DNA of 64,000 nt from Lingula anatina (lineage: Eukaryota; Animalia; Brachiopoda): assembly GCA_051362555.1 (NCBI GenBank), contig CM120640.1:35111967-35175966 (forward strand), given 5' to 3'. The notes beneath the pieces are model-generated. The model ran no database searches. It saw only the letters and a program-made list of their open reading frames with translations, and was not told the origin of the DNA. This document shows, one piece after another, positions 13,251 through 64,000 of the stretch. Within the stretch, counting starts at the first letter, position 1; each line of letters opens with the position of its first letter. The position numbers were made by a program, and so were the translations under genes.

Positions 13251-13308
<58 letters not shown>

Positions 13309-15122: not shown

Positions 15123-15154
<32 letters not shown>

Positions 15155-15873: not shown

Positions 15874-15917
<44 letters not shown>

Positions 15918-25598: not shown

Positions 25599-25822
25599 TT
25601 TGACTCGTTATCTTCCCTGCGTCGGGTATTCCGTTTTTATGTAATTATTTCATGTAATAGAAAAGCTTTTCATGTAATTTTTATACGCTGCAAATATTTT
25701 CTTTCATTCCTGCAGTCTTATAAATGCTGTTATATATGTGCTTGTGCTGCCGCTAAAGAGGACAGAACAAACCATCTGTCTTGGACTGTAGCGCCATCTA
25801 TAGCTATTGTAAATTTTTAAGC

Positions 25823-28800: not shown

Positions 28801-31800
28801 TGTTTATTTCATTTTATATTAAAAAAGTGTTAAAAATGGAAATAAACCCATTTCAGCACAGTGCTGTCTAGTTTACATTTTGGCATTTTCAAGATGTGGC
28901 TTTATAGTTCCATGGGCCTGAAGACCTTTGCTAGTCACATTTTCTGAATATCTGTGATACTAATATTTTATAATTAAAAATTAATGGTCATTATGCTGTT
29001 AAACATTATGTAATATTGCATCAAAATTTGAAGAAACCCCTATTTTGGGCACTGCTCCCATGATGATCATTTAAGGAAAATCATGTCACTTACTGTTCTC
29101 AAACTTACAGGAAAGAAACATGGGACTAAAATACACCTTCAGTAGGCAAAGCAGTCTGTTTGGTAACTTTTTCTGGCAGTTAAACAGTTTTTTGTGAAAA
29201 TTTAATTTTTCACATGTTGGCATTTTTAAGGTTTGACTTTGAAGTTCCATGATCGTGAAGACCTTTGCTTGTCATGTTTTCTGAATGTCCATGTTAATAA
29301 TAATATTTTATTAATAACATTTGATGATCATTATGCTGTTAATCATTATGTAATATTGCATCAAAATTAGAAAATAAACCTATTTTGGGCACTGCTCCCA
29401 TGATGACCATTTAAGGAAAACCATGTCATTTACTGTTCTCAAACTTACAGAAAGAAACATGGGACTTAAATACAGCTTCAGTAGGCAATACAATCTGTTT
29501 GGAAATTCTTTCTGCCGGTTAAAAAATGTTTTTTTGTGAAAGTTTAATTTTTCACATATTGGCATTTTCAAGGTGTGACTTTGAAGTTCCACAGGCTTGA
29601 AGACCCATGCTAGTCACATTTTCTGAAAATCCATGATACCTTTATTTTATTATTAAAAATTGATTGTCATTATTCTGTTAACCATTATGTAATATTGCAT
29701 CAGAATAGAAGAACACACAATTTTGGGTGCTGCTGCCATGAAAACCATTATGGGAAAACCATGTTACTTATGATTGCCAAACTTTCAAAAAAGAAATACA
29801 GGACTAAAATGCAGCCTGAGTTGGAAAAGCAGTCTAATTGACTTCTTTTTCTGGAAGTTATACATTTTCAGAGTGTGAACTTGAACTCCTATGGGGCTGA
29901 AGCCTTATGCTTGTTACACATTTTACTTACATTGGAATTACCTGTTGAGCATAATTAAAATTTGATGTTGAATTTGCAGTTTAACATAATGTACTTTTGC
30001 ATCAGAATTGACAGTACCCTATTTTGTTTTTTCCTTCTTTTTGTCTGTACATTTGACAGCTTTGCTGCCTTGTTGATATTAGGATATCATTGAAAGTAAT
30101 GTTTTTCAAATGCTTAATGCTAAATCAATCGAAGGAAAGTTATTCAACAAATATATATAATTTATTATGTGATATCAACCTTAGTCCTATTTTTGTTAAT
30201 TCAGAAAACAGTACATACGTAAAAACCACTGTCTAATATTTTTTAGTATCTTTAAATGTAGAAAAATGCAAAACAATGTTAAAATGATTTAACTGTGCTT
30301 TTCTTCTATGTTAAGGAACACTGTATGAGTGTTGAATACAAGAAATGCTATTGTCTGTCATCTCAGTGCATACAGAGCCACTTTCTCAAAATATACTAAA
30401 ATTATAGTGAACATGTTCTTGTGTGTGTGTTTGTGTGTGAGAGAAGGAGATAGAGGCTGAGGTTTCTAGTTCATATAATATTTTCTTTTTTTTTTCCTTG
30501 TAGTACAACCCAGTGTATGAAGTAGCTGTCTCAGCAGATGAGAGTGGAATGGTAGAGTACTGGACAGGACCAAAATCTGACTACAACTTCCCAAAAAATG
30601 TCAGCTGGGAGTATAAGACTGATACAGATTTGTACGAGTTTGCAAAGGTGAATTTTAACATAATAAATATGTGGATTTCTTTATTTTCTTGTTCTTGTAT
30701 AACAAAGTTGTGATCAAAAATTAACCAGGGAGTAAGAAGAAGAAAAAATTCTAAACTATGTTTTTGTATATTTTGTGGTTGCTTAGATATTTTGTTAGCT
30801 GTTTTGAAATCATTGTATTTCAGTATGTTTACACTTGTTACCCATTAGATGTTAGCAATGTAACTATTCATATTGGTCATGTATTTACAGTGTCAGACTG
30901 TACCTACAGGAGTTACCTTTTCTCCAAATGGGAAACTGATGGCTACCATTGCTAAAGACAGAAAAGTAAGTGACAGTATACGATATATAGCCAAATACAG
31001 GAGTCAATTGACAATATATTTTTGAAAATGTTTACTAATATGATTACTAGTGCTATGTTATTTGATCACATTTTGTGGTGACATCATGTTATTTCAGCTG
31101 CTGATGTTAAAAAATTTTAATGGTGCTGTTTTTATTCTAGGTGAGAATATTTAAATTTGCAACTGGTAAACTCTATAAAGTGCTTGATGAATCATTGAAG
31201 ACATTTACAGAACTTCAACAGGTAAAATGTCTATAGTCCTCTTTATATTGCATTGATATTACACAAATGTCATAATAAGATTTAACTAACAACTTTTCTT
31301 GGGAAAATCATTTATCTTTACTTAAAGAAGGGAAGACTGTCAAACTAAAGCTTTTTTGTTTATAGTGGAAATATATTCTGTGAATTGATATTTCAGACAC
31401 GGCAGCAGCTACCAAACATGGAATTTGGTCGTAGAATGGCAGTAGAGAGGGATCTTGAAAAGTCTGATGCCTTTTCACGTTGTAATGTTTGTAAGTGTAT
31501 AATTCTGTTTTATTTCAACTGTTCAACTATGAGATATAATGTAACCAAGATTTTGATGTTGAAAATTTTATATCCCCCTTTGTAAAATAGGCTTTTAAGA
31601 TTTTTTCTTCTAGAAAAGGTTGATTAGATTTAATTTGCCATATTGTTCAGGGAAATAATGTACTTTTTCTTCATATTCCAGTGTTCGACTCAAGTGGAAA
31701 CTTCATTATGTATGGTACAATGTTAGGAATAAAAGGTATGTCAGTTTTTGCTTCAAGCTTTTATATATTTATTTTTATAAAGAAATTTGAAGATCTAATC

Positions 31801-33967
31801 CCAATAAGCAGCACCTTTTTCACTGAAATCTACAGTGATTATCAAGAATCTAAAATCCATGCAATGAATATGAAAGTGAACGTTCATTCATCTTTCTTTT
31901 CCAGTTATTAATCTCTACACCAACCAGTGCGTTAGGTTTATAGGAAAACCAGAAAATATTCGCTTCGTCCACCTTTCCCTGTTCCAAGGGTCTGTGAAGG
32001 GCACAAAGGCAGCTCTGTCTGCTGAGATGGAGGCTTCGGACAACCCATCATTACAAGAAGTGAAATCGGATCCCACCCTCTTCTGCACTGCCTTTAAAAA
32101 GAATAGGTTTTATATGTTTACAAGAAGAGAGCCAGATTCTAAAAGGTGTGTGGTATTACTTTTAAGATTTATAATGTGTTATGTGGTATGGATTGTCTCA
32201 TTTGCTGTTCCATGCAGAATTAAACATGAAGTAAACTTATTAATGTAACACAATATATAATTCAATACATTTCTGTAATAGCTGTTTTGCCTTGATTATT
32301 TTTGCCCTTAACTAAATTGAAACATTATAGATGAGACTAAATTTTCATGTCATGCATTGCAGTGCTGATGCTGAGCGTGACATATTTAATGAAAGACCCT
32401 CCAAAGAGGACATCGTTGCTGCTACACAGGATGCCTCATATACCAGAGTGGCCAGTACTGCTGTGATCTATACCACCATGGGAGATATACATATAAAACT
32501 ATTTCCAAAAGAGTGAGTAAAGCTGCATAATCTATCTATCTATTCAATAAAATACTTTGGTGGAAGTTGGTCTTGAATTTGAGATTGAAACATTTAGTTT
32601 TAATCAGAAGTAGCCCACTTCCATGAGAATAATTGGCCCCGTTTTACATAATGGCAGATTTGGGTGATGTTTAAGACAGTTCTTTACATGATTGTTGTTA
32701 ACCAAAATTTTCAGTTTTAAAGTTTAGATGTAAGATCTTTTTAACTTAAGGCTCTTATTTGTAAAACTGAGAATTGTTATGCACAAGTGTGACACCATAC
32801 ACCAAATTCATTTTCAGTGAAAAACCACTTAATTTTTTTAATTCCCCCAAAATCTTAATATTATGATAATTTTGCTAATTTTAAGATGATTTTACATCAT
32901 TTTTATGATTTTACTTTATTATTTTAGGTGTCCAAAAACAGTGGAAAACTTCTGTGTTCACAGTCGGAATGGTTATTACAATGGGCACATATTTCACAGG
33001 GTCATAAAAGGTTTTATGATTCAAACTGGGGATCCTTTAGGTATAATAAACTAAAACTTGTATACATTTAATGTTTGATACCCAGATTAATTGACTTATT
33101 TCTATTATTTCAATTATCAAGTATTTTGTTTAATTAGGATATGATATCTGCTGCAGCGGTCTTTTCTTTATATACGTTTTTTATTTTTGTGTCATATTTC
33201 ACAAAGCAACCTTGACCTGTCTTGAAAATGTAAAAACATGTTTTACACTAAAGAGTTAATTTAAACATAATTGCATGCAGTTACTGAAAGAAAAATTATT
33301 TTTGTAAACAGGCACTGGAACTGGGGGAGAGTCTATATGGGGAGGCGAGTTTGAAGACGAGTTTCATCCATCAATTCGCCATGACCGACCATACACACTC
33401 AGTATGGCCAATGCAGGAGCCAACACCAATGGGTCTCAGTTCTTTATCACAGTGGTGCCCACAGTAAGTCCACCTTCATGTTAAAGTATTTGTTTTTCAA
33501 TGTTTATTTAAAACTGCTGATTTGAAAGCATTAGGATGGTTTAAAGAAATTGTCTCGGTTTCTTTTCTGTTAAGTCTGCATATTTTGTGGCACAGGCATG
33601 TCAATTTTCCAAGCAAATGAGAATAATAAAGTTAATCCAACTTAAAGTACAAAATCTGGTAATTCTTTTTTTCCTGGCAAAGTGGCATGTCAAAATGTTA
33701 CCTTTCACTTTCGTGCACGTTTTTATTTCAATCTCATTTTACAATTGATTGAGGAAAAATCAATTTTTAATAATTCAATTATAAAAGAATATGTAAATAA
33801 TTCACTGTCCAAATATTTTTCAGCCCTGGCTGGACAATAAGCACACAGTGTTTGGCCGCGTGGTCAAGGGGATGGAGGTGGTCCAGAATATCAGCAATGT
33901 GAAGTGTAATCCAAAGACTGATAAACCACACGACGATGTCAGAATCATCAGTATCTCCTGTAAATAA
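25823..33967 (+). CDS. PPWD1: Peptidylprolyl isomerase domain and WD repeat-containing protein 1 (spliceosomal cyclophilin)
   Basis: 16 exons at about 25823-25931, 26158-26260, 26446-26549, 26848-26943, 27375-27462, 27771-27873, 30504-30647, 30891-30965, 31141-31221, 31397-31490, 31682-31735, 31905-32145, 32363-32512, 32928-33040, 33312-33463, 33824-33967. Diagnostic peptides [69 protein letters not shown], then the cyclophilin domain ([40 protein letters not shown]). Confidence 0.97.
27940..30074. mobile_element. Non-autonomous Helentron-like element with internal tandem arrays in a PPWD1 intron
   Basis: Hairpin ATGTACAGACAC-AGAT-GTGTCTGTACAT and a GTC/GCC microsatellite. Three 159-bp units (anchors 28101, 28260, 28419) and about 3.5 units of ~340 bp (anchors ~28920, 29257, 29599, 29899). 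End GTCTGTACATTTGACAGCTTTGCTGCCTTGTT. Confidence 0.85.
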
Positions 33968-46800: not shown

Positions 46801-47371
46801 GATACTTATTAAGTCAAAATGGTTCAAAGCTGTTTCAAGCCTGTGAGCATGAGTTGTGTTCTTTTTCACTTTTAAGCATTCAACACATGGGTGGACAGGG
46901 GCAGTCTGGGTCTTCCGGAAGACGGTCAGAATTTTCAAGTTTACAATGATGGACATCTTTTTCTTTTCTCTCAAAAGACAGTCAAAAATGGAGGATGGAT
47001 TGACAAAGATAATTTGGAAAACTGCCAGAAAATACATGTACCTCTGGATCTGCCCCTGCAACAAACAGAAGTTATGCACATTAATTTTACACTCTTTGTG
47101 CTACTAACCTTATCATCAAACCTGGAATATTTGCTCGTTTCATTGAGAAACATCTGAGAGGGTGGTAAGCGTTTCTGAGCCTCTTTCTGAGCATCTTGTA
47201 CCATCTTTGCTGCCTTTTTGGCTTCCTTCTCTTGTCTTTTCATCTCTTCCAACTGTATAATGTTAATAACAGATATATATGAATCTAAAAGGGCAGTTTT
47301 CAAAGACAGGAGATACAGGAGACACTCATTAAAGACAGACCAATGTCAAAAGGAATGTGGATTTCACCAAC

Positions 47372-47440
<69 letters not shown>

Positions 47441-50400
47441 TAATTTCATCTAGCAATGTATCCCTGACTGTCTATTGTTAAATACACTCACCTCCATGAA
47501 ACTTGGACACTTTGGGACCAGAAGTTACGTTCTCATCAGTGATGTTAATAAGTGTGTGTGTGTGCGTGTGTGTGCGTTTGTGTGTGTGTGTGTGTGTGTG
47601 TTTGTGTGTGAGAGAGAGAGAGAGAAAGAGAGGGCAAGAGACAGAGGACACAGTACACAACACATGGGAGCTCATTTTATAGATGACCATTAAAGTTTGC
47701 TCAGTTTACTTTTAATAACACAGATATGCTTACCCTCAGTTTATCTTCTCTTTCTTTTATTAAAGTATCTTTGTCAACTAGCTTGATTACAGGAGGTTGA
47801 CCTGAAGACAGAGAAAAAGTGGAAGAAATGAATTTAAAAGTAATTATACATAATATTTATGACATTGGTGAATGTGAAACAGTTTTTTTGTGTGATGATA
47901 ATGAAAAGTAAATCAATTTTAAAGAGTATAAGCTGTAGATTGATCATACTGTATGAGGTCACTCTTAATGCAATCATTTTAACAGTTAAACATGCCTCCT
48001 CTTGTTTCCAATGTACTAGTATAACCAGCAGTATTTCTGTATTCTACTCAATGCCAGGTGGAGGAGTGTTTATTAAACTGATAATATGCAGAGAAAATGC
48101 CTGCAGATTTGGATTGATCTATGTAGACTGATTGTTTTCAATGGGAATGAGCCCTAATGTGTTTTTACTACCAATGAGGCATGATGTTTTGACCATTCCT
48201 CAAAGGGCCTTGATCCTATACCTGACAAGGTTGAAATGCCATGCGTCATAGGTGTTGTTAAGTCTCTTTCAAGAAAAGTTGATTTTTTTTTTATTTGTAC
48301 CATCACATCAAATTTCCATCTAAACAATTATGCTACGAAAAGTATTCTTTATAATCCGAAAACATCAAATTTCCATATTATATTTGCCACCTTATACTGA
48401 CTCAAATGGATAGTCTTGAATCAGAATTACATATGGTGATTATGGCACGATAGATTTCGTGGTGACGGATCAATTTTTTTCGCCTGATTCATGCACAATG
48501 CGATCAAACTTATTTTTATCTACTGACTCATTCCCAATGCCACAAGTACAAACTAAAATAATAACTACAATCTGATTATACCTTCGTGGTCCTCAAGTCT
48601 CACTCCTAGATTTGGAAGATCATCATCTCGCACCTGGTCGCAAAACTTCAAAATATCTGTAACTGTAAAAAAAATAATATTTTGTTACTTGAGCATAACA
48701 TATTCCAAATACAAGGCAAAATATGTTTTACAAAATATAGCTATATCTCATACTTAAAATAATGAAAATATGAGCTTTAAATTCCTTACACACACTGAAA
48801 AATTTCTTTTTTTAAATCTAGATAACAAAAGTCATGTTTGAACTTGAATTAGTTATACCTTTTTGTTCCCTAGCAACCTTTCTGACCAATTCTCTAAAGT
48901 TGGCAAAGCAAGCTAGATATGGCATAACTGTGTCTTCAATCTGTATAAAAAAAGACAATTGATAATTTTCAGTTCTTCTGCATATCCTATGATTCATTTT
49001 AGTACTTGAAACTAAATATAAATTATTTAATAAAATAAAGACCCTAAATATATAATCCTTAACCATATATCACTGCTCCTAAATCTAACTGAAAATAATT
49101 AAATAAGATAAACCATAAAGATTTTTTTCCATAAACATATTTGAATACGTAACCCATTTTTTCATAACACACACATCATATATTAATGTAGCTTTGTAAT
49201 ACGACTTCGCTCCTGTTAGAGAATGCCTCATATGGGCTGGACTTAACACAACCTAACTTACACAACACACTTACATTGGCAGTTTGTCCAGAACCTTGTG
49301 GAAAACCTATGGTTTCTTCTCCATCAATAGCACCAAAAACCTGAATTGAGATTAGCATCAATGAGTAAATTCAAACAAATTCAGTTAAGAAATACACTTA
49401 CATTCATATGACTGAAATCGATTGACAATAATAATATCTTATTTAAGTAATTTCCAATATACAAATGATGATCGGTTGAGAGGACAATATAAGCAAATGC
49501 AGACCCAAGAAGACAATTGTTTCCAGGTACTTCATTTGACAAATTATCCCCCAAAATAAAACCACCATTTCTTGGAATAACAATAGCTTTTGCTTGTTTT
49601 CTTATTACATATAATTGACAGGTCGGTTGACAGTGATAAATAAGATGGAGGAGACATAAATGACATGTACTTCACAATGAGCATACAATTTATTTTTCTC
49701 AAAAATTAATGTTTGCCATCTAACAAAATATACATTCTTATTATCAGAAGGCACAACACACATGCAAACACACACAAAAAGTAAAAATGGCTATCACAAT
49801 GACAAAGTGACCAACATACCCTCATCATCCTTGTGACATACTTGGCTATGTTGAGGAGCAGAAGTCTATTCGGTGTGACTTTGGCGCTCCTCCTGACACT
49901 GATGTACGAGTTAGAGGCTGTGACTAGGTCGCGTATATTCTCCATAGCACTGCGTGTGTCTATGGAATCTAGAGAAAGAATTGAGCAATGAACACAATCC
50001 AAATGTGCCATTATTATTTTGTCAAGCCATTATGTTCTTGTTACATAATTTCAAATCAAATGTAATAGTAACCACAAAAGGTGTCATCATCTTTAATGCA
50101 TTGGAGCAATATTATACAAACTCGAAATTAATGCAGATATCCTTACCACAGAGAGCTTCATGAACACCTGTTCTCTTTTCCAAAAATCTGAAAAAATTAA
50201 TAATCAAATTCACGTTAATATAATCTTAAGTCCGAATGAAGGTTGTAATTAAATTTTGTATAACTGTCTATAATGTAATTCTTGACATTCAGTAATGTAA
50301 ATATATGACCCAATTATTTATTCTGGAGTCCATATTTCAAACTTTCACATGCATCACTATTTCTAGTATAATTTTACTTTTTTTAGTCTTAGAGCTATCA

Positions 50401-52078
50401 CTTTCAAACACTACAGCAAGGTACTTTCTGACACAAGGATAGACTAAATTTTTCACAAAGTATGAATTTAAAAGATTAGCATGGCATAATATATGTTCTA
50501 ACTTTAAAAAACAAGGTGACAGTGTCTGGAAAAATTGAAGATTAACAATGTACATCATTTGTGTCAGTTGCTGTCTTACAGCATTGCTACCAAAACACTT
50601 CTTTTGTGAAAATCTTTAATCCATGTTCTTGACTGAGTAATCACCAATTCAGTAACAACTCTATTACTTACTTTGTATTCAGTTGGCACTCTTCTGTATG
50701 CCATTTGTCAAATGAATCTGGACCAGACGAAGGAGTGTTCCTCAGAATATCCTTCACTGTCAGAAAAAATTCCTGGCAAAAAAAAAATCATAAAGGTATA
50801 ACAATGGGGATGAATCTTATGACACATATTCTGAATATTTGATGTTTAAACAAAAGTCTTACTTAGTGAATTAATACATTAATTCAATACAGTTCATCAT
50901 CAACACAAAATATCTTGGAGCCTGGATTTGAAACATCATTACATTGAAGATAAATTTTCTGCCAAACAGATCTATGGAAATTCTCTACATTTTCATACAG
51001 CATTAACTCGCAACATAACAATATTGGTAATTTATATATATCACAAGTTAGCTAATTAAAAGTACTACTGAAATACATTCCATAAACCTTAACCAAAGTC
51101 ACATACACAAATACTCATAAAAAGCTATAAATAATCAACATACGTTCAGATGTTTTTCATACTGCATGGCAATCTCCATAGTGTTATCACTATAATCCAG
51201 CGTGTCCTTCCAGGAATGGAGAAGAAAAGCAAGTCGCAGCTGTCTTGATGAGTTTTTCTGGAGAGCCTCTTTTATTGTGATGAAATTCTTCAGAGACTTC
51301 GACATCTTACATCCTGCTATGGTCAAGTGACCAGAGTGAAGGAAATATCTGACCCAATTGTCATTACCATAATATGCCTGGCAATATGAAAAAAGTTGAT
51401 AACATAACACAACTTTAGTTCCTTCTTTCCTATTGATTACTCTGAATTGTATGTGGTAGCTGATTATAATTTTTCAACATTGCCAGCATTACTTCTATTT
51501 ATTGCCATACCAATATGAAATTGTCATATGCTAAAAGGTGTTTTCATGATTGAAAGATTAAAATCTATTCTTTCATTTAAAACCCATCAGGAACATTAAT
51601 GTATAACTTCTCATCTAATATTGAGTCTAAGACAGCCAGGTCTTACTGTACAAGGTTAAATCACCTCTGATTGTGCCAGTTCATTGTCATGGTGTGGAAA
51701 CTTGAGATCAAAGCCACCTGTGTGAATGTCCATTGACTCGCCCATGATACAACTGGCCATTGCGGAACACTCAATGTGCCAACCTGGGCGACCCTGAGTA
51801 CAGTTATAAACAGAAAAAAAATCATGTAAGAAATGCCCAGTTGATTGTTAAAAAACTAGCCCCAATGCTTTATAAATCTTACAGCAAAAGTGTAATCAAA
51901 TCTGAAAGTAAAATGGAAAACTGAATGTATATGATTATTAAGTAGTGTGAATGTAACCTGCAAATGCAGTTTGTCCTTAAAAGTTCATGTTTGCTAGTAT
52001 ACAGTGCTGTAAAACAAATATTTAGTTATGACAGTTTTTTTCCATGAAATCATGTCAAATACAACGACAAAATCACAC

Positions 52079-52113
<35 letters not shown>

Positions 52114-55100
52114 CTGAGTACCTTTCCCCAAGGTGAATCCCAGCTAGGTTCCCCTGGTTTGGATGCCTTCCACAAGGCAAAGTCATTGGGGCCCCTCTTC
52201 TCGTCCAGTCTGTCCTGGGAAATACTCAGGTCACCTTGGAGTAAAGAATGTAAAGTCATCAGCCATGAGTCACCCCGAGTTCCAGAAAACTAACTTTTTT
52301 GCTCAGCATGGCTCTGGCATTTTTAATGAGTCACAAGATATTAGTCTCCAGTAAACTGTTAAAACCACTAGTTTGTGTAGTACAACAGTAAAAAATATAG
52401 CAAGTTTTCAAGTACTTTATCCATTCCATAGCACTCAATACTGCAACTCTGTTATAAGAAACTGTACTTTCAGTGGAACACTGTCAAGGGCTATAAAATG
52501 TTTTATTAAAGGGATAACAGCTTTTTTATGAGATTCAAAATTTCACAATAAAGACACTGTAAACAATACAAAGAAATATAATAAATTCCATTTTACCACC
52601 AAAGCAGCGATTATCTTAATTATTCTGAAATCTCTGCTTGCAATTGGACCACGGGAACCTTCACTGATGACTACCCACTGTAATTTTCTCTTAAGAGATT
52701 TTTTTTACAAAAAAAAACATGTTTCAAAAACTATCAATTAACTTTCAATGTCAGAGCAGATTCATTTACTGTTGTTAAGTATGGAAATGGCACTCTTCCC
52801 ACCAAAATGAGTTATTATCCCTTTAAGCACTTAAAAAACCATACAGTCCTTCCTACTAATTCATCAAATTTGCAAAATAGGGTAATAGCTAAAGCTAAAA
52901 GAGGTCCTGTGATCACTGACACAGTAAATGGAATTGTGATATTCTGAGCCTATATGTTAGAGCCTGCAAGCATGTTGTAGCAGTACATATGAGTAATACA
53001 GCATGTGACACAATGTTAATCTTCAAATTTTCCAGATACTGTACCATGTCTAAAAGTCAAAACATACATGTATTTACCATGTCAAAAGTGAATTTAAAAA
53101 ATATAAGTGCATAGGAGGGCACTGGCATATATAAATACATGTACATTGTGAGAAATCATCTGAATATGGCCTACCTTCCCCCTCCTGCAAGGCTTTTGCA
53201 TCCCCATAGGCCTCGGGAACCAGCTTGGCATAGTAGTGACCTTCTGCTTTGCTGAACTTTGATGTATCAAAATATACAGACCCATTGGACTCATAACTGT
53301 AAAACAGATTTTTTATATTATATACACTGTACATATCAACTAGACTTTTGACTAAAACATGTTGAAATATTCTTTTTAAAGAAATTAACTTTAAAAAATC
53401 ATATGATGTTTTAATTGCAAAGAATATCCTTCCACAGTTAAAACAAAAACAGGCCTATCTTGGTAATCACCATGCACATGTAGAAACATCTAAATCCATA
53501 TTGTCTCTAATTTTTACCCAAAGTTAGCAATTTCAGGTACACAATTTCACTGACTCTCATCAGTTTTTTCTTTTATCTATATATCACGTTAATCACTTAA
53601 ATTATACAAATGAAACTTACGCATATCCATTATCTATAACTTTCTGCACAAAGTCAGCTATTTCTGGCACATATTCACTAACTCTTGTCAATACATCTGG
53701 AGGCTCTACCTGCAAATAAGCACAATTATACATTTATAAATTAAGTTACTGTAGTTTTAAAAAAATGGTAAATAAACTGGAAAGTCCATAACAGCACATA
53801 CACAAAATCATTTCAGCAGCTTCTACCCTGCATTATAAATCATTTTGAAATTTGCAAAAGCGAAAGCTCAAAAATGGTACAAAATGCAAAAATAATGTAT
53901 ATGTTCATATTTTTCACTTTTTACTTGTTTATTCATCATTAAATTTCATTAGTAGTTCTGACCATTATGCTTGCACCTTAGGGCAACTGCTCAAAGTATG
54001 TAACTTATTATTCTGTTACAGAAAAGTGACATACTTCTCAAGTGGGATCAGATAAAAACAGCCCAGATTAAAAATAAAAGAACTGATCAAAAAAAAAAAA
54101 AAAATGAAAAGAAGACAGTTAGACCACATTTCTTACCAAATTAAGAAGCAGCAATGGAATCTACAGAAATTGCTTGTAAATTATTTAAAGAGAACCATAC
54201 CTAATAATACCAAGATGCTAAGTGAAACACGCATTGTGGATTTAAAGAAAATATTAAATTAAGGAAAGCGTCCATTGGAAAATGCCTGCCAAAATGCAAG
54301 CACACTATATCGTACTATGTACATAACGGGAACAATAGTTTTTAAAAGATGACGCATCCTTAATTTTTCTAAAGATATATGGATGCCATCCCAAGTTCTT
54401 CATAACCTGCATATAAACCTTGGTCTTGAGATAAGATTTTAGATGTTACATAATCATTATTTATTATAATCTAATAAAATTTTATGGCCTCAAAGCTGAT
54501 GTACCCAAGCATACACAACTGAATTTGTCCTAACTTCTCTGTAAAATAATTAAGTAACAAAAGAAACCAATATAAATAAATATAATACTAAAAGTATCAG
54601 TATATGTACAGTGCATGTGAGTTTTTTTAATTAGATGAAATTAATTTGCATTTGTACACATTTAATTTAACACAGTGGGGGCAATTTATCTATACAGGTT
54701 TCCATATAAACATGAGTTGAAAAAAAATAACTTTCAAAGCAGTTTTCAACGAAAACACGCACCTTAAACCTTCCAGGACTTATGGCAGAGGTGGGAAAAA
54801 TTGCAGTCCTATTAATAGCCAGACTTGACCTGCTTACATTAAGACACTTTATTCTCACTATAGTGGGTCTCAGTTAAGTTCCTGGTCGCAATCTATGTGC
54901 TCACAGGAAGTGTGACAAGAGTAAGGAATGAGTACATGTATGAACCATGCGCGCCATGAACTAAATCTCAAATCCTTCTCATCAGACTGAGTAACATATA
55001 CAGTTATACACAGGTGAGTAAGTGTATGGTACAAGTAAATGTAAGTATAACAGAATACCAGAGGTGACATAATTTTCAATCACTGCATCAAGGTATTATT

Positions 55101-58100
55101 TGCATATTACACAATGTATGTTCAGTAAAATCCTGACTGACCTAAATACCCTATTCTTCTTGCATATACTGGGAACTCGTGCGAAGACATCCTTTATCTG
55201 ACCTACATGCACCTGAAAGTTTTGGCCTTATTGTCAGAACTTACATGTAACAAGCACAGGTAGCTTAATTGTTGTTAAAATGTTCAAACTGTAACCTGAA
55301 CTGAAAAGAGGCCACCATATACATAGATGACTCATGAAAATGCCTGTATGTAGGTGGGAAAATCAAGACAACTAAGCTAGTATAGGGTTAGTGAACCAGA
55401 AAAGTGAAGAATACCGGCTGGTGCACACAGGTAATATAGATCAGGTAAATTAGATGTACAAGTGTACCATGTGCCCTTTAATAAGTTTTACCACATTTGT
55501 ACGTTTTTTAAGATAGCACAGTATAATGCTGTTGGTTATGTCTAGTTAATAACATCATGCTTACATGTACTCAATTGTTCTTGTTGTGGTGACATGAAAT
55601 ACTTTTAATTAAAGTTGTGGTATCATGGAGTGCTAGTAAGACTGCTGATATGACTGATTCATTTTCAAAACATTCCACTTGATTCATTAGCTTCCATATG
55701 GTATTTTATTTGATATTGTTGGCACATACATTTGCCTTTGTTCTGTGTTTAAATTGTTCACTTTGTTATACACCTACAACTTTTACTTTCAGTTTCTGGT
55801 TCATGAATGAGAGAATTACTTTGAATTTTTGACAAAGCAAATTTGTCAATTTAAATATTTTTTCAAAAGATTTTTAAATTGACAGCATGGAAGCAATAGC
55901 TGTCCTTGTGTGGATGCAGAAAGAGCTTTTAGGGTACCACTCCCACCTTAACACTGAAACCTTTTTCCTCACATTCCTAAAATGTGATTTGTGAATTACT
56001 GAATTTCTCTGCAATATTCCTCTACAGGTCTTGACAAGTTTTGGACCATAACAAAACCCATAACAACATCCTCCTTCTTATCCTACCAAATACTATAATA
56101 TAATTATATGTTTAACTATTTACCTATTACTTATTATTATTATTCAATTATTACTATTATTATTAGGCTTAGGTACCCCCCCCCCCCCCCCCCCCCCCAG
56201 CTCCTTGAGTCTTGCAAGTCAGGCAGCTATTAAAATATTTACACTCATACACAAATTGGGGAAAATATTAAACTTCTGTATTTTCTTTACCCAAGGTTCA
56301 AAAGCTAGTTAGTATCCTCATGCACATCCTGCCTGACTCATGATTAATATAATGAAAGATATGCTATGTATATTCCATATTGCAGCAAAAGACCTTCTTC
56401 CGGACTGAGCTGTTCCTTTACTCTGGTATCACAACAGAAATAGGAAACAGTTGTAGTTGGCATTACTGTAAGCATCCCGAGTTGTGATTAATATTATGAA
56501 ATTCAGTTAGAATGCTACTGTTTATTCTATATTGCAGCAGAGGACCTTCAATTAGACAGTTGAACCTTTACTCTGGCATCACAACAAAACTAGGAAACAA
56601 TTGTAGTGGGCATTACTGTAACTGTAAGCATCCTCATGGGCATCCTGCCCGAGTCGTGATTTATATTATGAAATTCAGTTAAAAAGCTACTGTTTATTTT
56701 ATATTGCAGCAGAAAACCTTCATCAAGACAGCTGAACTTCTACACTGTCATCACAATAGCACTCTAGGAAATAATCGTAGTTGCCACGATGGACACAAAT
56801 GGGACTGTCACTGTAAATGTGACGTACACGGTGGAATCTAACTCTACCATCAACCCACCAACCCTGGCACCCCAGTTAAACAATACTACAGTATACCAGA
56901 CCCCAGTACAAAACCAACTGCCAACAGGTGAGTACAGGTATGATAATTACTCAATCTTTTCAATGGGGAAAAATTGTGAATTTTACAGATACTGTGATTT
57001 TTAAATCTTAATTTTTTATATACAGAACACTCTTACTGAGCTGCATCAAGGAGTTCCGACATTTAGAACTCCTTGGTTGTAGCAACAAAATTAAAAAGCA
57101 GGCTACTCAACTATTGTTGTATTCTGTGCAGTAAAGCACCACAAATTCTATATAGAAATATAATTTTTTGTGATTATAAAATTTAGTATTTGAAAGTTTG
57201 CTCATTTTTGCCCTTTGAAAGGATCGAGTAATTATCGTAATATATAGAAATACAGTGCATAATTCACATGTCAAATACCAACTTATTTCAAAAGCCTATT
57301 TTTCATCATTTGTCATTTTGACATACTTCAAAAATATATGATGTAAACCTACAACTGAATATTGAGTCCTAGTGTAAACAGTAGAACCCAGCTCTCTTTA
57401 CAAAACCTAAATTGTTTCCCATGCGAAATATAACTTATTACAAAGATTTATTTAACATAGTGAGTGGTTTTCACAGTACAGTAACTCCAGAGACAAGACC
57501 ACCTGTATGACTAAACTAGGCAGTTTCATTTTGTTTCTCATATCCTCTCCAATATGGGAACAGAAGGGTGCAATGTCTACCACATTGACCTGAACACTAG
57601 ACTTCCTAAATACTTCGCCAGACTATAATCAGAGGTTATTCCTTTTGTTTACCTCAACAAACACCCATCTGTAAGCCTACTAGTACCGATAAAAATGCAC
57701 CACACTTCCCGTGAATAAAAGCTGTATCAACAAAAGTCTGTGGATTTAGACCCTGTTGTTGAATCAAATGAATCACTGGTATTCTACTGATACAATAATA
57801 AATAATCTTTGTGCATAAATAATTTGGTTAAAAAACTTATTTAATATAAGACAATCAATAATACAAATTTCTTAAGCATGGACATAAGGAATATTTTAGC
57901 CTTTGCTATTTCTATTACACAGTACATGCTCATACATTTCAGTTTTTTCTGAGGCAAATTAAGCAAAGACCCAATGCAATGTCAACTCTTTAAAACATAG
58001 TTCCTGTTGTAGATATTGTGATCAGTTCATTTTTGCAATAAAAAATTCGCTCTATCACATTATGGGCTATAAAAGCATTGTGACAAAATTTCTCCACCTA

Positions 58101-61100
58101 ACCACAGTTTCCAATGGCTTATGCATTCTCCTTCTTTTATTAAACCTGTTATTACAAATAAAGGACTTAATAATTTATACTAAATAAATGAATTTATCTT
58201 TTTCTTTCAGAAATTATTATTGCAATAGCTGTAGGAGCTGGTGTGTTTTTTATCCTGGTGATAGCACTACTTGTAATTATCATTTGTCTTCGCAAGAAGA
58301 GAACAAAGTAAGTAAACCACAACTGTATAGAGAAATTAGTTCAAATAAACTTTGGCCAAAAAATATAAAGCAGTTTTTAAAAGACACCTTAAACATAAAG
58401 AAAAGAAAACCTGTTGTGAAGGCAGGGATTCAAATAAACGGTTTAACCATAAGATCTATTAAATAAACTCACCACAATATTCCTGGCTCAAAAGAAAATG
58501 TACTGGTATATCCCACAGTTTAATGTTCACCATTTGTTTTCATCAGAAATTTATCACACATTTAATATACATTATTGGAATTGTACACAGACACAAACAA
58601 CAAGTACTTTGCCAATATAGACATGACATACTCTGATGTGCTAGTCGCATTAAATAAAATAAGAAATACTACTAGGTTTTTAACCTAGGCTGAGATAAAA
58701 GAGGAATAAACACAATATTAACAAATATCATAGAATTTTTCTGATCTGTAAGTCCCGATTATCTACGAGAAATGACGAGCAACATATGTAAGAACCAATT
58801 TACTATTTCAAAAATTTACTTAACAGTTACCTGTTAGAACATCATAAATTTGTTTAGACAATCTTTATTTATTGTCTCAATCAACTGTTGTGGCAATGTC
58901 TTGACCTTTAACCTCAGATGGCATAATATGATGGAAGACCACTGGTAGAGCATTGACATTTTTGAGTTAGAACCCCGGTAGATGAAAAATTAAATAAAAG
59001 CTCTGTGAACCTAAAAAATTTGTTATAGTTAACAATATTAAGATCCTGCAAAGTATATCAATACCTCTTAAATGTATCAACTCTTCTTCACTCAGATCAG
59101 CCAATGTGCCTGCGGATAGTGCAGCGACTTCCACAGCATATAATCTACTGGCACAGAGGGAGGTCCCAGAAAAAAATGAAGAAAATGCTGCCCAAACCAA
59201 GGACCATAGCAAAGGAAATGCATATGAGCATAAAGAAAAATCTGACCAAAGTAAAAAGATTCCACTCAAACCTATTAAAACGAAAGAGAAACCACAAAAA
59301 CCCGCACGTCACTCCCGTACTTCTGGAAGCACAAGTAGCGGCAACGGTCAATCCCTACCACAAGATGAGGCAAAAGAAGAAGAACAGAGTGATTATGTAA
59401 ACGTGATAAGGGACAAAAAGTCGGGTGCTGTGAGACCAAAGACACACCCAAGATCCAAGCTAACAAGTAACTCTTCAGATCCAAACACTCCTTCCGCTGG
59501 ATGGCGCGATTCATCAGGTCATTATGAAGTGCCTAAGAATCCAGTGCCGATAAATGAGCCCCCTGCTGAGTATTTGAGTCTCCTGCCCAATGATGACACC
59601 TATGTCAATGCAGATGTTACTACGGACACGACCCATGACCTGTATACATATGCAGATCATCAGACCCCATCTCCTCACTTAACAAAGAGACAGGAATCAC
59701 AAGATGTCTACGAAAATGCTTAGCGATGGTAGATGTTATTTGTTTTGTCTTTCTTTAAGGTATGGCTTAAGCGTAAGCTAAGAGGAATACGGGTAGTACT
59801 ATGTACTAGCTCGTTTTTCTCCATGAACCAGATCTTTATTGTGCTTTCAATGCTTTTTTTATTGATGCAAAATGTGAATATCAACCTTATTTGTCTTTTA
59901 TTCAAACCACTGCATCCAAACAGCTTTTGAAAGTTTTGCTTTTGAATGATAGTCTGTTCTATTATGTGCTATCAAGTGATCTTTTTTGGTCACAGTGGTA
60001 CTTCAAACAATGCATACGTCAGGCATGTTAGGGCTGACACAAGACTCAATTATTTTGTAACAAATACTACCAACCAACCATGACCAAAAATTCATACAAG
60101 CAAAGTAAACACAAAAACAAAGAATGTAAACATGTCCATAATATAAAACAAATGGGATTTTCCTTATCCAAAAATTGTTTCATTTATAAGCTTTAATAGA
60201 TTTTATAGATGGTAGAATAAAAGTTGTTTATTAATCAAAATATCTTTTGTTTTGTTTAAAAGTATTTCACTACTAGTGACTTAATAAACTTTCATTTTTG
60301 GAAAGTTTTTTTCACTTGGTACATGTACATCATGTTGTTTGTTTTTTTTTCTATTAATATCATCTTCTATAAATTTTCTGTTTTCAGTTTATCCATCTAG
60401 AATAACTTTCATAATTTTAATGTAATAATTCTTGACCAAAATAAACTTACATTCAAGGCATCCATGTCATTAAAGTACTCAGCTTCAAAATGTTTTGGTA
60501 GTGTGGCAAATATTGCATTATCTGTGACTTCTGACCCATGCAGACCATCCAACCAATCAGAGAGGATGTCTTGAGCGTCTGCCAATAAGGTCTGAATAAA
60601 AACAGGAAGAGAATAAACATTTATACCCTGATGACATGACTGACATCTTTGGTTTCTGTTTATATAACCATGTACATACTAAATCATGTCAACCGTTATT
60701 CAATGCCACACCACACTCATTTGTCCATCACAATCTTGTGCAACTTTACTCTAAATCGCAAGCTCAAGACTTACATTAAGGGCTAATGAGGTCAAGATGA
60801 CTTTTCAGTTCAAAATCTTTTGGAAACTATGCCCAGTGGAATGCATGCTGGTTATTACCATTCTGGCTGTATCCAGATGAGACAGGGTGTTTTCAGCATC
60901 ACACTGCTTCCTTGCCTCATCTACATGTGTAAGTGCTGCAGAGATTTTGGCATCCATACGCTCATACATGGCTTTTTTGTCTGGGTCAGTTTCTTTATTC
61001 AGCTTCTCCTTGAAAGGCTGCAAAAATCAATAATAATAATTAGAATTAGAAAATACACTTCACTATCCAAATAAAACCTATGACGACGGAAAGTAAATTG

Positions 61101-63327
61101 TTTCTAAAGACACAAAACATGGTTTTCTTCCTGATCCATGATATTTTAGCAGTTCATCAAAGGGCCTTGATCACAAGCCTGAATTTTAGACATGAGCTCT
61201 ACTTTTTATCATCATCACACAATAGACAATGAAACATTCACTATAAAACAGGGAACATGTGACAATTAATACTTCATCAGCTGCATAACCAAACAGTGTC
61301 AATAATCTGGTCATTGTCGGCAGGTGAATTCCTTCTTAAGGAGACATTTATTTCATAGTATTACACATTCAGTTTTGTGTGTTGTTTTGACCAAATAAAA
61401 AAGTAAAAAAAAGTTCAAATCTCCAACTATGTTTTTCAAAATATATATTGGCCTAATGCAACCATGTTGTATGTATGAGTGGGGCCAGCATCACAAAAAG
61501 CACAACACATGGGACAATTGCTACGTCACCTCGTTTCTTAACAAAATCTTACAGATCAATTCTTATCTGCTGGAGGTGAGACTACTGAAAATTCCACTAC
61601 ACAGAAAAGCTCAAAACTTTTTAAAACAGGATAGGTTTTTTTTATTGGTCAAAGACAGTTAATTCAAAATGGTGTTTTTTCAATTTGTTGCTGCTTCCTT
61701 GGCCCTACCAAACACATGTATTACATGTATTTATTGATCATGACAAGTAGGGTCGACAGTTTCAGCGTGTCTGTTATATACTAGTATGTTGAAATTATGT
61801 CCAAGGAGAATACTATATTATTTAGTACCTTCATAGCTTCCTCCAAGTCAACTAGGACTTTGTCCAAGGGATGATGTGCAGCCAGGTACTGCTCCATAAG
61901 GTGATTCTGACGAGCTCTCTTGATGATCTGTTTAATATGTAAAAGACTGGATTATATACACTGATATACACATGTACAGTACCAGACTGTATAATATATG
62001 CATATCAGACTGTACATATATATTAAATGGATTACAAACAGGGACATAAATGAAAAGATACATAACATCCAACTTGCAAACTATAACTGAAAGTAGAGAT
62101 TGATTTTGTACGATTGTACAATGTAAAGACTGTCAGGTGAAGAACTGACAACTATTTTAAACTCATTTTTTTCAAGTGCGATGACACATGGGTAAAACAG
62201 TAACTGTACCTATTCGGTAATGTGCAAATTCTTAAAAAAAGTGATAAAATATTAATTTTTATCTTCCTTGCCTTATCATCAATATCTGTGATATTCATGC
62301 AGTAAAAGACATCATAATTGAAATAGTCCTTGATAACTCTCCTCATGATGTCAAATGAAATATAGGACCTAGGAGAGAGAAAAAACATTGCCAAATTTCG
62401 AATTATTGCATGAAGTCAATGTAAGACTGACACCAACATTATTAATCCAAGATAAAAAAAGAAATAAGTTTTATAAATGCAGATGTATTCAAGACGACAT
62501 GATTTATTTCATCATTTGAATAACAAATAAATGCAGACTGCTCCTTCCAATTCAACATTTCACTTGTAAAAAGAAAGAAATTCACTTTTGCAGTGATTTA
62601 TAAAATGCTGTTGCAAATAAGGAAAGATATAACAATATTCTGCCAAAGAATGTTAATAAAATGGGGAAACGGTGTTTTAAGCTATGTGTATCTTTAATCA
62701 AGGTTTTTAAATCTTTAACTGATTTAACATATAGTTTGAATAAATTGTATGTCCAGTAACAGATTTTAAAAACTTGAGATGTGTAAAATATGACTGGAAA
62801 ACTGATCTACATGATAAATTGCATAGCTTGTTGCATCCAAAACTTTATTAGTTTGCAATTTCAGATTTAAATTGATATTTTACCTTGCGTGCCCCATATG
62901 CGAGGCATCATACACGGTGGGACCACAGCTGTACCATGTGACCTGGCTGCCATTCTGAGGCACAAATAATTCCTGCCATAGAAATTAGAATCAACTGAAA
63001 TATCTTTAAATTTATGGTCTTAAAATAAACCAAGAAACAATTTAACACACATAAATATTTCACTTAACATTGTTATTCATGATCACTCCAATACTAGACT
63101 TTTTGTGCCTCAGTAAAGTTCTTATCTAAAGCTTTTAATTTCTATTTTAACAGGTGGGCTACACTTTGATAACTCAAAGTAAAAATAAACACCATAACAC
63201 CATGATAAATATAACAAGGGATTCTTTCTACCTACCTTTTGCCTGGTAAGACTGTTATATAACTTCAGCTGAGCAACTCCAGTAGCAGCTGGAGGACTCC
63301 ACTTTGGCTGGACTCTTTTTGTTTTTC
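43868..63327 (-). CDS. CARS1: Cysteine--tRNA ligase, cytoplasmic (5' end outside the window)
   Basis: Approximate exons: 63327-63237, 62972-62884, 62367-62272, 61927-61829, 61018-60859, 60591-60451, 53709-53621, 53295-53176, 52238-52122, 51792-51665, 51377-51144, 50772-50672, 49967-49820, 49340-49275, 48662-48582, 47801-47734, 47252-47110, 44035-43868. Motifs [27 protein letters not shown] (HIGH motif), [53 protein letters not shown]. Confidence 0.98.
44044..46685. mobile_element. Non-autonomous Helentron-like element filling most of the last CARS1 intron
   Basis: Begins ACTAGAG with a GAGGCG-ATAC-CGCCTC hairpin and carries a 146-bp tandem array. (GGAGCCGCA)3 microsatellite at ~46587-46620 and terminal hairpin GTACCGCCAGCG-CCTA-CGCTGGTGGTAC. 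Confidence 0.8.
44240..45680. repeat. Tandem array of about 10 x 146-bp units
   Basis: The AGGTCAAAGGTCA anchor (preceding base) falls at 44261, 44405, 44551, 44697, 44843, 44989, 45135, 45281, 45427 and 45573. Internal copies are near-identical. Confidence 0.97.
47372..47630. repeat. Two compound (GT)n(GA)n microsatellites
   Basis: Read directly at about 47372-47436 and 47551-47630. Confidence 0.95.
52506..52826. mobile_element. TTAA-flanked non-autonomous element (Kolobok-like), copy 2
   Basis: TTAA|AGGGATAACAGCT...AGTTATTATCCCT|TTAA. Confidence 0.75.
54903..55013 (+). promoter_or_regulatory. Candidate promoter/first non-coding exon of the nested gene
   Basis: ETS consensus ACAGGAAGTG at 54903-54912, followed by a strong donor CAG|GTGAGT at 55013. 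A second donor CAG|GTAATA lies at 55430. Confidence 0.35.
56320..56800 (+). repeat. Three diverged ~150-170-bp tandem copies of the splice acceptor/5' UTR of the nested gene
   Basis: TATTGCAGCA..(G/A)ACCTTC...TCACAA...TAGGAAA...GTAGT recurs at ~56378, 56530 and 56702. Confidence 0.85.
56789..59723 (+). CDS. Nested antisense gene: 287-aa type III single-pass membrane protein with tyrosine-motif-rich disordered tail (LAT/NTAL-like transmembrane adaptor architecture)
   Basis: Kozak context GCCACGATGG. Exons 56789-56927, 58211-58307 and 59096-59723 join in frame (864 nt including stop) with GTGAGT/GTAAGT donors and CAG acceptors. Ectodomain has N-glycan sequons; [27 protein letters not shown] is followed by LRKKRTK. 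Tail carries YVNV, YEVP, YLSL, YVNA and YENA. AATAAA at ~60217 and 60283. Confidence 0.88.
61928..62271 (-). other. Non-canonical GC-AG intron in CARS1
   Basis: The conserved DIDDK|IIKRAR junction requires donor AAG|GCAAGG at 62271 and acceptor AAACAG|ATC at 61928. Confidence 0.85.
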
Positions 63328-64000
63328 CTAAAAGCAAAATCAATGCATTATACAATGGACTGTATCAGCCATATATTCTTCCTTATCTTAGCTAAATTGG
63401 CAATACATTTCAACTTCCAATCTGTGCCAAAAACGTTTTTTGATTCCATGTAAATGTACTAGCCCTTTGGGCACTCAAGGTCTAAAAGTGAGCTACAGGT
63501 AGTGAGATGTAAAATTTCAAGTTTTTTTTTTAACTAGTCCATTGTCTCTTTACACTTTCAATTGCCTCTGGCTAATGTTTAATGAACAGAGTGAACTTAC
63601 ACTTGTTTTCCAAATTGAAATAACAACCAGGGGAAATTAAACAGATTAAAGTCTGTCAATTGTAACTTTTAGAAAAAGATGAACTAGTACAGGTTTTTGG
63701 GAGCCTAAAATGGAAAACTGTTTGCTGCATAAGGCTTTATCAATATGATGGCATTTCAAACCAATTTCTAATCAACAACCTACTCAATAAGCCATTATCA
63801 ACTGGATACTTTATTTATAAGCTGAAAGATTTATTTGGATAAATGAACAAACAGAAAAATGTTTTGGACAGAAAACTTTGTCACCATAGCCGGAAAATAT
63901 TACTGGTTGACTGGAGATGACCTGTATCAAACAGGTGTTATTTTTCAGTGCCTGAAGCTCCGTCTTTGAAATGTGTTTGAGTATAAGGCATGACCATGCA

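What the first reader, a model, noticed from the sequence alone, without database searches (positions are those of the whole stretch)
56789..59723. LAT/NTAL-like transmembrane adaptor in an invertebrate
Seen: no signal peptide and a ~47-aa Thr/Asn-rich ectodomain with sequons NGT, NVT, NST and NTT (type III topology). The TM ends in Cys followed by LRKKRTK. The ~215-aa low-complexity tail has no domain and nine Tyr: AYNLL, AYEHK, DYVNV, HYEVP, EYLSL, TYVNA, LYTYA, VYENA. Known: pYxN binds Grb2/Gads (LAT uses YVNV and a terminal YENL), pYxxP binds Nck/Crk, pYxxL binds SHP2-type SH2 domains, and juxtamembrane Cys palmitoylation targets such adaptors to rafts. Inference: a functional analogue or remote homologue of vertebrate immune transmembrane adaptors. 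The ORF track shows it only as unconnected fragments.
Basis: partly seen in the sequence, partly recalled or inferred. Interest (0 to 1): 0.85.

Follow-up and report, generated by a model that had tools for sequence, protein, structure and literature searches.

The report
LAT-like membrane scaffold in a brachiopod
A spliced, transcribed brachiopod gene lying inside an intron of the cysteinyl-tRNA synthetase gene encodes a 287-residue predicted single-pass membrane protein whose tyrosine-rich tail likely docks signalling proteins the way vertebrate immune adaptors such as LAT do, although no kinship to those adaptors was detected.

Summary
Three coding exons (56789-56927, 58211-58307, 59096-59723) give 287 aa, matching RefSeq XP_013401432-5 (uncharacterized LOC106167251, Lingula anatina) at 283 of 287 residues. 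RNA reads confirm both coding introns and the + strand. All upstream exons seen are non-coding and splice in ahead of an in-frame stop, so no ectodomain is missing. The gene lies antisense in a 6.7-kb intron of cysteinyl-tRNA synthetase and was read in 4 of 6 runs. The tail has no predicted fold, nine Tyr (three Grb2-type YxN, one YxxP, two YxxL) and two PxxPx[RK] sites. Differences read in a divergent run are mostly synonymous (11 of 17 shown; pN/pS about 0.2). No homologue was found, and no vertebrate adaptor family was hit in Pfam. It lacks LAT's CxxC and YLVV motifs and has a 47-aa ectodomain with five sequons. Best reading (0.6): a convergent transmembrane-adaptor-type phosphotyrosine scaffold, likely binding Grb2/Nck/SHP2-type proteins. 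True LAT/NTAL homology is unlikely (0.05). Phosphorylation, binding, palmitoylation and an immune role are untested. Tyr-motif tails also occur on ordinary invertebrate receptors, including a predicted one in this window.

The parts
54760..55013 (+). 5' non-coding exon A (start approximate; several short uORFs, all ending inside this exon)
   Evidence: Read depth, and joints 55013 to 56710 in X4 (4 reads), X5 (2) and X8 (1); uORFs
55354..55444 (+). 5' non-coding exon B, with two donors (55430 and 55444)
   Evidence: Joints to 56710: X7 7+4 reads, X8 3+4 reads; exon A to exon B joint, 3 reads in X8; acceptor located
56386..56467 (+). Minor alternative 5' non-coding exon, copy 1 of a tandem triplication
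   Evidence: 2 reads in X5 (table 5c); weak support
56710..56927 (+). First coding exon: 79 nt of UTR with in-frame TAG (56765-56767), ATG 56789, then the Thr/Asn-rich ectodomain with five sequons
58211..58307 (+). TM exon (phase 1 to phase 2): TM at 58213-58290, Cys72 at 58285-58287, basic stop-transfer stretch RKKRTK
   Evidence: AlphaFold2 helix 46-80 with pLDDT 93-96 over residues 51-70
59096..59723 (+). Tail exon, coding part. Tyr codons start at 59139 (YNLL), 59223 (YEHK), 59394 (YVNV), 59523 (YEVP), 59571 (YLSL), 59601 (YVNA), 59643 and 59649 (YTYA), 59709 (YENA, C-terminal). PxxPxK at 59262-59279, PxxPxR at 59292-59309
   Evidence: no Pfam family at E<=0.01; mean pLDDT 41-58 per block of ten residues from residue 81
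59724..60310 (+). 3' UTR (end approximate; AATAAA at 60216 and 60283)
   Evidence: Gene-strand depth in X4 continues to the 60020-60370 bin and is zero after it; signals
53710..60450 (-). 6741-nt intron of the cysteinyl-tRNA synthetase gene, which holds the whole gene on the opposite strand
   Evidence: CT..AC joint in all 4 runs; PF01406 on 4 of 7 exon frames tested, on both sides of the intron; ends

Best explanation
This spliced and transcribed gene encodes a predicted type III (no signal peptide, N-terminus out) single-pass membrane protein whose predicted-unfolded tail likely works as a phosphotyrosine scaffold of the transmembrane-adaptor kind, probably arrived at independently of vertebrate LAT/NTAL. 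Inferred mechanism: a separate receptor activates a Src- or Syk/Shark-type kinase, which would phosphorylate the tail. pY179-VNV, pY248-VNA and pY284-ENA would bind the Grb2 SH2 domain (multivalent Grb2-Sos clustering, Ras-MAPK). pY222-EVP would bind Nck/Crk-type SH2 domains (actin). pY238-LSL and pY94-NLL would bind SHP2-type SH2 domains or serve as YxxL sorting signals. The two PxxPx[RK] sites would pre-bind SH3 domains. Cys72 is a candidate palmitoylation site, and the ectodomain is likely a glycosylated, fast-changing spacer. Shown: gene structure, transcription, strand, absence of upstream coding exons, motif content, and an excess of synonymous differences in the tail. Predicted: topology and disorder. 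Inferred and untested: phosphorylation, partners, lipidation, cell type and immune role.
For: The architecture matches the transmembrane-adaptor definition of short ectodomain, one TM and an enzyme-less tail with Tyr motifs (PMC3342071 passages; sequence). YVNV is identical to the Gads/Grb2 motif of LAT and LAX. The tail has 9 Tyr, 0 Phe and 1 Trp in 208 aa, with Y[VEIL]N 3 vs 0.12 expected. In the tail, 11 of the 17 shown differences in divergent run X7 are synonymous (pN/pS 0.16-0.22, P 2e-4 to 2.5e-3), and none alters a Tyr. In the ectodomain 7 of 11 are non-synonymous, one removing a sequon. ESM Atlas feature neighbours include SCIMP 0.86, poxvirus A36 0.86, GAPT 0.82 and LIME1 0.81 (leads only). 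Four RefSeq accessions carry this one protein sequence, which fits alternative 5' UTRs. Src and Csk span animals (PMC3492796); Grb2, Syk, SHP and Crk homologues are present in an ascidian that lacks LAT (PMC12582321).
Against: There are no biochemical data. All Atlas scores are under 0.9 with 100-132 of 256 shared features, a range the tool treats as a lead only; opalin 0.85, TMEM154 and EVI2B score as well. Synonymous enrichment inside versus outside the motifs is not significant (6:1 vs 5:5, Fisher P=0.30), and 226 of 266 variant rows were not shown. Acidic kinase context is not enriched (P=0.15). A 47-aa ectodomain with five sequons is longer than the 'few amino acids' of classical adaptors and could bind a ligand. 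Tyr motifs of this sort also sit on ordinary invertebrate receptor tails (Botryllus FcoR; the predicted neighbouring receptor in this window). No orthologue was found to show deep motif conservation, and Lingula's own SH2 proteins were not checked because no genome was held.
Confidence: 0.6

Rival explanations
1. A small glycosylated receptor, co-receptor or adhesion subunit (opalin/TMEM154/EVI2B/glycophorin-like). The ectodomain itself would bind a lectin or partner chain and the tail would signal for it, like Botryllus FcoR, possibly as an ectodomain-reduced offshoot of Lingula type I receptors.
For: Five sequons in 47 aa (P=0.007). Atlas hits opalin 0.85, TMEM154 0.82, EVI2B 0.80. Weak Pfam hits over the stalk and TM, all below cut-off (Mid2, TMEM154, PRIMA1, Glycophorin_A). 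A predicted lectin/FN3 receptor in the same window has a TM exon of the same phases (1 and 2) ending in Cys-Leu-Arg and a predicted tail with YxNI and YxxL. A variable ectodomain is also what recognition proteins show.
Against: The ectodomain has no predicted fold and no Cys. DNA similarity of the two TM exons does not exceed codon shuffles (P=0.11). No longer paralogue was found among 4411 candidates (weak evidence by the tool's own note).
Confidence: 0.2
2. A trafficking or endolysosomal membrane glycoprotein whose Tyr residues are mainly YxxPhi sorting signals read unphosphorylated by AP complexes (recalled consensus).
For: Three YxxPhi motifs (94, 179, 238), one about 20 residues from the TM; sequon-rich lumenal segment.
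Against: Three YxN, one YxxP and two PxxPx[RK] sites are not needed for sorting. The 26-residue TM is plasma-membrane-like (recalled rule). The tail is far longer than those of typical lysosomal glycoproteins (recalled).
Confidence: 0.1
3. A true remote homologue of LAT/NTAL/LAX, inherited from the bilaterian ancestor.
For: Same overall layout, YVNV identical to LAT/LAX, nine Tyr as in LAT. Adaptors diverge so fast that even LAT and NTAL show no major sequence homology, so homology could be invisible.
Against: None of the 20 Pfam families listed at E<=10 is an adaptor family (HMMER filters drop most matches above about 0.1). phmmer over 1.84 billion representatives found itself plus two spurious hits. 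No CxxC or YLVV. LAT and SLP-76 homologues are reported absent from ascidian genomes, and the SIT family is described as a vertebrate novelty (PMC5620054).
Confidence: 0.05
4. A fragment of a longer receptor gene, or a gene-prediction artefact on an antisense transcript.
For: Phase-1 intron before the TM exon, as in type I receptors (recalled); nested antisense position; orphan.
Against: Every upstream joint to the first coding exon lands at 56710 (3 reads at 56715 with variant letters), before the in-frame TAG. No loose ends were listed ahead of exon A. All uORFs end in exon A. The synonymous excess indicates selection on the protein.
Confidence: 0.03

Closest known systems
LAT / NTAL (LAT2), palmitoylated transmembrane adaptors
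   Same: One TM near the N-terminus, juxtamembrane Cys, enzyme-less tail with nine (LAT) or ten (NTAL) Tyr, YxN sites, YVNV (PMC3342071 passages)
   Different: One Cys, not CxxC; no YLVV PLC-gamma site; three YxN versus five in NTAL; 47-aa sequon-rich ectodomain versus a few residues; no sequence similarity detected
LAX and GAPT (non-raft transmembrane adaptors)
   Same: Multiple Grb2 YxN sites; YVNV as in LAX; no CxxC as in LAX; GAPT is an Atlas neighbour at 0.82
   Different: No YxxM PI3K site; no detectable homology. GAPT is reported not to be phosphorylated on FcERI triggering, a warning that motifs do not guarantee use
SCIMP / LIME1
   Same: Top Atlas feature hit SCIMP 0.86, LIME1 0.81
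   Different: Scores below the tool's 0.9 bar, 128 and 100 of 256 features shared; no Pfam hit to PF15050 or PF15332
Vaccinia A36 and orthoreovirus p14 (viral Nck+Grb2 membrane scaffolds)
   Same: Unrelated membrane proteins with disordered tails and an Nck site about 20 residues before a Grb2 site (PMC9333988 passages). Here YEVP (222) lies 26 residues before YVNA (248); A36 family Atlas score 0.86
   Different: A cellular, intron-containing gene; an extra YxN lies upstream of the Nck-type site; no related viral locus found
Botryllus FcoR and other invertebrate Tyr-motif receptors
   Same: Invertebrate single-pass proteins with several Tyr motifs likened to LAT substrates (PMC12582321 passages)
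   Different: FcoR are type I Ig-superfamily proteins with ITIM/hemITAM; this protein has no signal peptide or folded ectodomain and is YxN-rich

Membership tests
Transmembrane adaptor proteins (functional class) | Single TM near the N-terminus, no upstream folded ectodomain | tested here: met
Transmembrane adaptor proteins (functional class) | Extracellular part of only a few residues | tested here: inconclusive
   47 aa, no predicted fold, five sequons; longer than LAT or PAG (PAG 16 aa). That LAX and SIT have longer or glycosylated ectodomains is recalled, not checked
Transmembrane adaptor proteins (functional class) | Long cytoplasmic tail with no catalytic or folded domain | tested here: met
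   No Pfam family on the tail at E<=0.01; AlphaFold2 single-sequence model without confident structure after residue 80; no PDB match below E 0.16
Transmembrane adaptor proteins (functional class) | Multiple SH2-type Tyr motifs | tested here: met
   Three YxN, one YxxP, two YxxL; enriched over shuffles
Transmembrane adaptor proteins (functional class) | Phosphorylated by Src/Syk kinases and recruits SH2 proteins | not testable with these tools
   Needs experiment
LAT / NTAL (LAT2) | Sequence similarity to the family | tested here: not met
   No adaptor family among 20 Pfam rows; no relatives
LAT / NTAL (LAT2) | Juxtamembrane CxxC palmitoylation motif | tested here: not met
   Single Cys72, no CxxC; palmitoylation itself untested
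LAT | PLC-gamma1 site YLVV | tested here: not met
   Absent from the nine Tyr contexts
LAT / NTAL (LAT2) | Immune-cell expression and raft location | not testable with these tools
   Run tissues are coded; read in 4 of 6 runs, absent or trace in X1 and X3
LAT / NTAL / LAX | Shared synteny or intron positions | not tested
   No genome held; no vertebrate gene structures at hand

The most novel reading that the evidence does not exclude
This is a working invertebrate equivalent of LAT: a receptor-independent membrane scaffold in brachiopod immune cells that turns Syk/Src phosphorylation into multivalent Grb2/Nck clusters. It would be one example of a hidden class of fast-evolving, motif-only adaptors (three unnamed arthropod clusters of 261-386 aa look similar by language-model features), and would answer what does LAT's job in animals that have the ITAM pathway but no LAT.
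Probability: 0.2. Interest if true: 0.8.

Novelty: new variant of a known kind. Interest (0 to 1): 0.5.

Why it matters
Transmembrane adaptors are treated as vertebrate proteins, and an invertebrate chordate is reported to have nearly the whole ITAM/ITIM pathway except LAT and SLP-76 (PMC12582321, passage read). A spliced, expressed orphan under apparent purifying selection with this layout in a brachiopod offers a concrete protein for testing whether the role is filled by convergent, motif-only scaffolds that homology searches cannot see. If it fails the tests, it is an ordinary lineage-specific membrane glycoprotein that RefSeq already lists as uncharacterized.

Tried and rejected
Homologue searches: tail query, 1 of 88 candidates, the protein itself; longer proteins, 0 of 4411; residues 165-287, 1 of 11, itself; 1.84 billion representatives, 3 hits. 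Of those three, P0002 is a signal-peptide repeat protein matched on acidic Tyr stretches and P0003 a Pro/Ser-rich TM protein matched on stalk, TM and basic stretch; both were rejected as compositional. Metagenome contigs, 0 of 149 pattern matches confirmed; viral contigs, 0 of 4. PDB sequences: 3 hits at E 0.16-0.78, all on the TM. Atlas structure rows all had TM under 0.5. Fold search was not run because the model has no confident domain. Complex prediction was not run because binding would need phosphotyrosine and animal SH2 partners that it does not offer. The run index listed no indexed RNA holder, so nine same-label raw-read runs were offered and six were laid. Common origin with the neighbouring receptor's TM exon: not significant (P=0.11). 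A Cys-rich alternative frame over 56710-56841 stops at 56841 and was judged a frame shadow of Thr/Val codons. Earlier findings of this scan: four look-ups, nothing shown. Literature: the locus id and two of the four accessions appear in no searched main text; 'LAT-like' with 'invertebrate' gave 0 papers; searches gave 0; listings 26, 27 and 41 showed no title describing an invertebrate LAT-type adaptor. A recalled paper on the Lingula immune system was not held. Supplements were not searched and could list this gene's expression.
Full report
Gene model. The window gives three coding exons, 56789-56927, 58211-58307 and 59096-59723, with GT..AG introns in phases 1 and 2 and a 287-aa product. A search with the tail found one protein among 88 candidates, P0001, labelled uncharacterized protein LOC106167251 of the brachiopod Lingula anatina. 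It is 287 aa, differs from the window's product at 4 residues, and is carried by four RefSeq accessions. The gene is therefore already predicted in RefSeq, without a function. No genome was held for this window.

Transcription and splicing. Six of nine offered RNA runs were laid, 6-26% of each being read. Intron 1 is read in X4 (2 reads) and X7 (13). Intron 2 is read in X7 (9 reads, with six variant letters between); 21 further joints were not shown. In the stranded runs X4 and X5 the gene's reads have the opposite mate orientation to the host gene, so it is transcribed from the + strand. X4 and X7 cover the tail exon; X5 and X8 were laid on the 5' part only and cover it. X1 and X3 have zero depth over the tail exon while host-gene bins reach depths of 12-13, and X1 shows only a trace at the 5' exons. 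Expression thus differs between samples, but tissues are coded and unknown.

Reads join exon A (about 54760-55013), exon B (55354-55430 or 55444) and, in 2 reads, an exon at 56386-56467 to an acceptor at 56710. That acceptor lies before an in-frame TAG at 56765-56767, for which no variant is listed (2 rows not shown). In four reconstructed leader forms every upstream ATG opens a frame of 2-31 codons that ends inside exon A. No loose ends were listed ahead of exon A. So no signal peptide or folded ectodomain is spliced on. Three reads in X8 suggest an allele lacking about 25 nt around the TAG (inferred from a loose end). With the window's leader sequence this still brings no upstream ATG into frame.

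Setting. The whole gene lies inside a 6741-nt intron (53710-60450) of a minus-strand gene, read as a CT..AC joint in all 4 runs. PF01406 (cysteinyl-tRNA synthetase) hits 4 of 7 exon frames tested, on both sides of the intron. The 3' UTR appears to end near 60300, short of the next host exon.

Protein anatomy. Residues 1-47 are Thr/Asn/Val-rich with five sequons (1.7 expected, P=0.007). Residues 48-73 form the only hydrophobic stretch, flanked by net -1 and +4 charges, which predicts N-out, C-in insertion without a cleaved signal (positive-inside rule recalled). AlphaFold2 without an alignment gives a confident TM helix and nothing confident elsewhere (mean pLDDT 52.9). The tail has no Pfam family, 9 Tyr, no Phe and 1 Trp in 208 aa. 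Motifs are YVNV, YVNA and terminal YENA (YxN, the Grb2 motif per PMC3342071, passages read), YEVP (YxxP; Nck/Crk assignment recalled), and YNLL and YLSL (YxxL; SHP2 or sorting assignment recalled). YxN is enriched over shuffles (P=0.014; the narrower Y[VEIL]N, chosen afterwards, P=1e-4). Acidic context upstream of Tyr is not (P=0.15). There is no CxxC, YLVV, YxxM, PPxY or PDZ-type end.

Selection. Runs X7 and X8 differ from the window (most reads 90-95% alike), which gives a stand-in for an outgroup. One search showed 40 of 266 difference rows. Seventeen fall in the coding tail (one more, in the 3' UTR, was dropped): 11 synonymous and 6 not, pN/pS 0.16-0.22, P 2e-4 to 2.5e-3 depending on the transition bias assumed. 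None changes a Tyr. Within motif positions the split is 6:1 and outside 5:5 (Fisher P=0.30), so motif-specific constraint is suggested but not shown. In the ectodomain 7 of 11 differences in X7/X8 change the residue (pN/pS 0.59, P=0.29; one X4/X5 variant left out), and one removes the N18 sequon. These are RNA reads of mixed alleles, not an orthologue alignment.

Relatives. None was found. The two extra hits are compositional. Pfam lists 20 families at E<=10, all under their cut-offs and spanning the TM and its flanks, and none is an adaptor family. ESM Atlas features put SCIMP (0.86), poxvirus A36 (0.86), an unnamed arthropod cluster (0.85), opalin (0.85), TMEM154, GAPT (0.82) and LIME1 (0.81) nearest. 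With the unnamed filter the three best are arthropod clusters of 261-386 aa at 0.84-0.85. All are below 0.9 and are leads only.

How it likely works. Best reading (0.6): a convergent phosphotyrosine scaffold. A receptor-coupled Src or Syk-type kinase would phosphorylate the tail, three YxN sites would gather Grb2-Sos, YEVP would recruit Nck/Crk, and YxxL sites would recruit SHP2-type phosphatases or sorting adaptors. Viral A36 and p14 show that unrelated membrane proteins reach an Nck-then-Grb2 layout independently (PMC9333988, passages read). Here YEVP precedes YVNA by 26 residues, though a further YxN lies upstream. Rivals are a small glycosylated receptor or co-receptor (0.2), a sorting or lysosomal glycoprotein (0.1), a true LAT-family homologue (0.05) and a fragment or artefact (0.03). 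A caution from the same window: a predicted receptor at about 9400-18360, with F5/8-type and FN3 exons, has a TM exon of the same phases ending in Cys-Leu-Arg and a predicted tail with YxNI and YxxL (no reads laid there). Juxtamembrane Cys and Tyr motifs are therefore not unique to adaptors in this animal. The distinctive point here is the absence of a signal peptide and of a folded ectodomain.

Against what is known. It meets the structural definition of transmembrane adaptors except for ectodomain length (PMC3342071 and PMC4861716, passages). It fails the LAT/NTAL membership tests that could be run (similarity, CxxC, YLVV), so it is not filed as LAT or NTAL. LAT and SLP-76 homologues are reported absent from ascidians that hold the rest of the pathway (PMC12582321, passages). 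The SIT family is listed among vertebrate novelties (PMC5620054, passage), and Src and Csk span animals (PMC3492796, passages). PMC10875847 (passages) notes snail single-pass genes with SIT or TMEM154 domain hits, so faint adaptor-like matches in lophotrochozoans are not unheard of. PMC10199209 (abstract and one passage) shows Grb2-dependent phagocytosis in amphioxus through a different protein. Searches turned up no description of this gene or of an invertebrate LAT-type adaptor; subscription journals and supplements were not covered.

Verdict. A real, expressed orphan under apparent purifying selection, with adaptor-like anatomy. The analogy is plausible and testable, homology is unsupported and the immune role is unshown. 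Novelty: new variant of a known kind. Interest 0.5.

Noticed in passing
window 46971-63364 (-): Cysteinyl-tRNA synthetase gene (PF01406 on 4 of 7 exon frames; joints) that hosts the finding in one intron, on the opposite strand.
   Followed up: yes
window 56308-56790: Tandem triplication of a 150-170 bp unit (72-88% alike) that contains the splice acceptor. Copy 3 is the first coding exon's UTR, and copy 1 is used as a minor 5' exon in 2 reads.
   Followed up: partly
window 56939-57239: Element in intron 1 with 66-nt inverted arms (73% complementary). Hundreds of RNA reads match it only in part and run on into unrelated sequence, so it is likely a multi-copy MITE-like repeat; single copy in the window.
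   Followed up: partly
window ~9400-18360 (+): Predicted type I receptor: Cys-rich exon, F5/8-type lectin exons, FN3 exons, TM exon 17438-17522, and a short tail with YxNI, YxxL and a PDZ-like end. No reads were laid on it.
   Followed up: partly
window 56756-56780: Three reads in X8 suggest an allele lacking about 25 nt of the 5' UTR, including the in-frame stop (loose end; inferred).
   Followed up: partly
window 54760-55013: Exon A holds up to seven upstream ATGs with short frames, one of them a 31-codon hydrophobic frame. Possible translational control.
   Followed up: no
runs X7, X8: Reads are mostly 90-95% alike to the window under the same species label, possibly a distinct population or cryptic species (inference).
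   Followed up: no
window 12-2540 (-) and 25757-32248 (+): Exon frames that look like a family-10 glycoside hydrolase and a WD40/cyclophilin PPWD1-like gene (names recalled, not tested).
   Followed up: no
ESM Atlas: Three unnamed arthropod clusters (324, 261 and 386 aa; 50-59 members) resemble this protein by features (0.84-0.85). They are candidates for similar motif-only membrane scaffolds.
   Followed up: no
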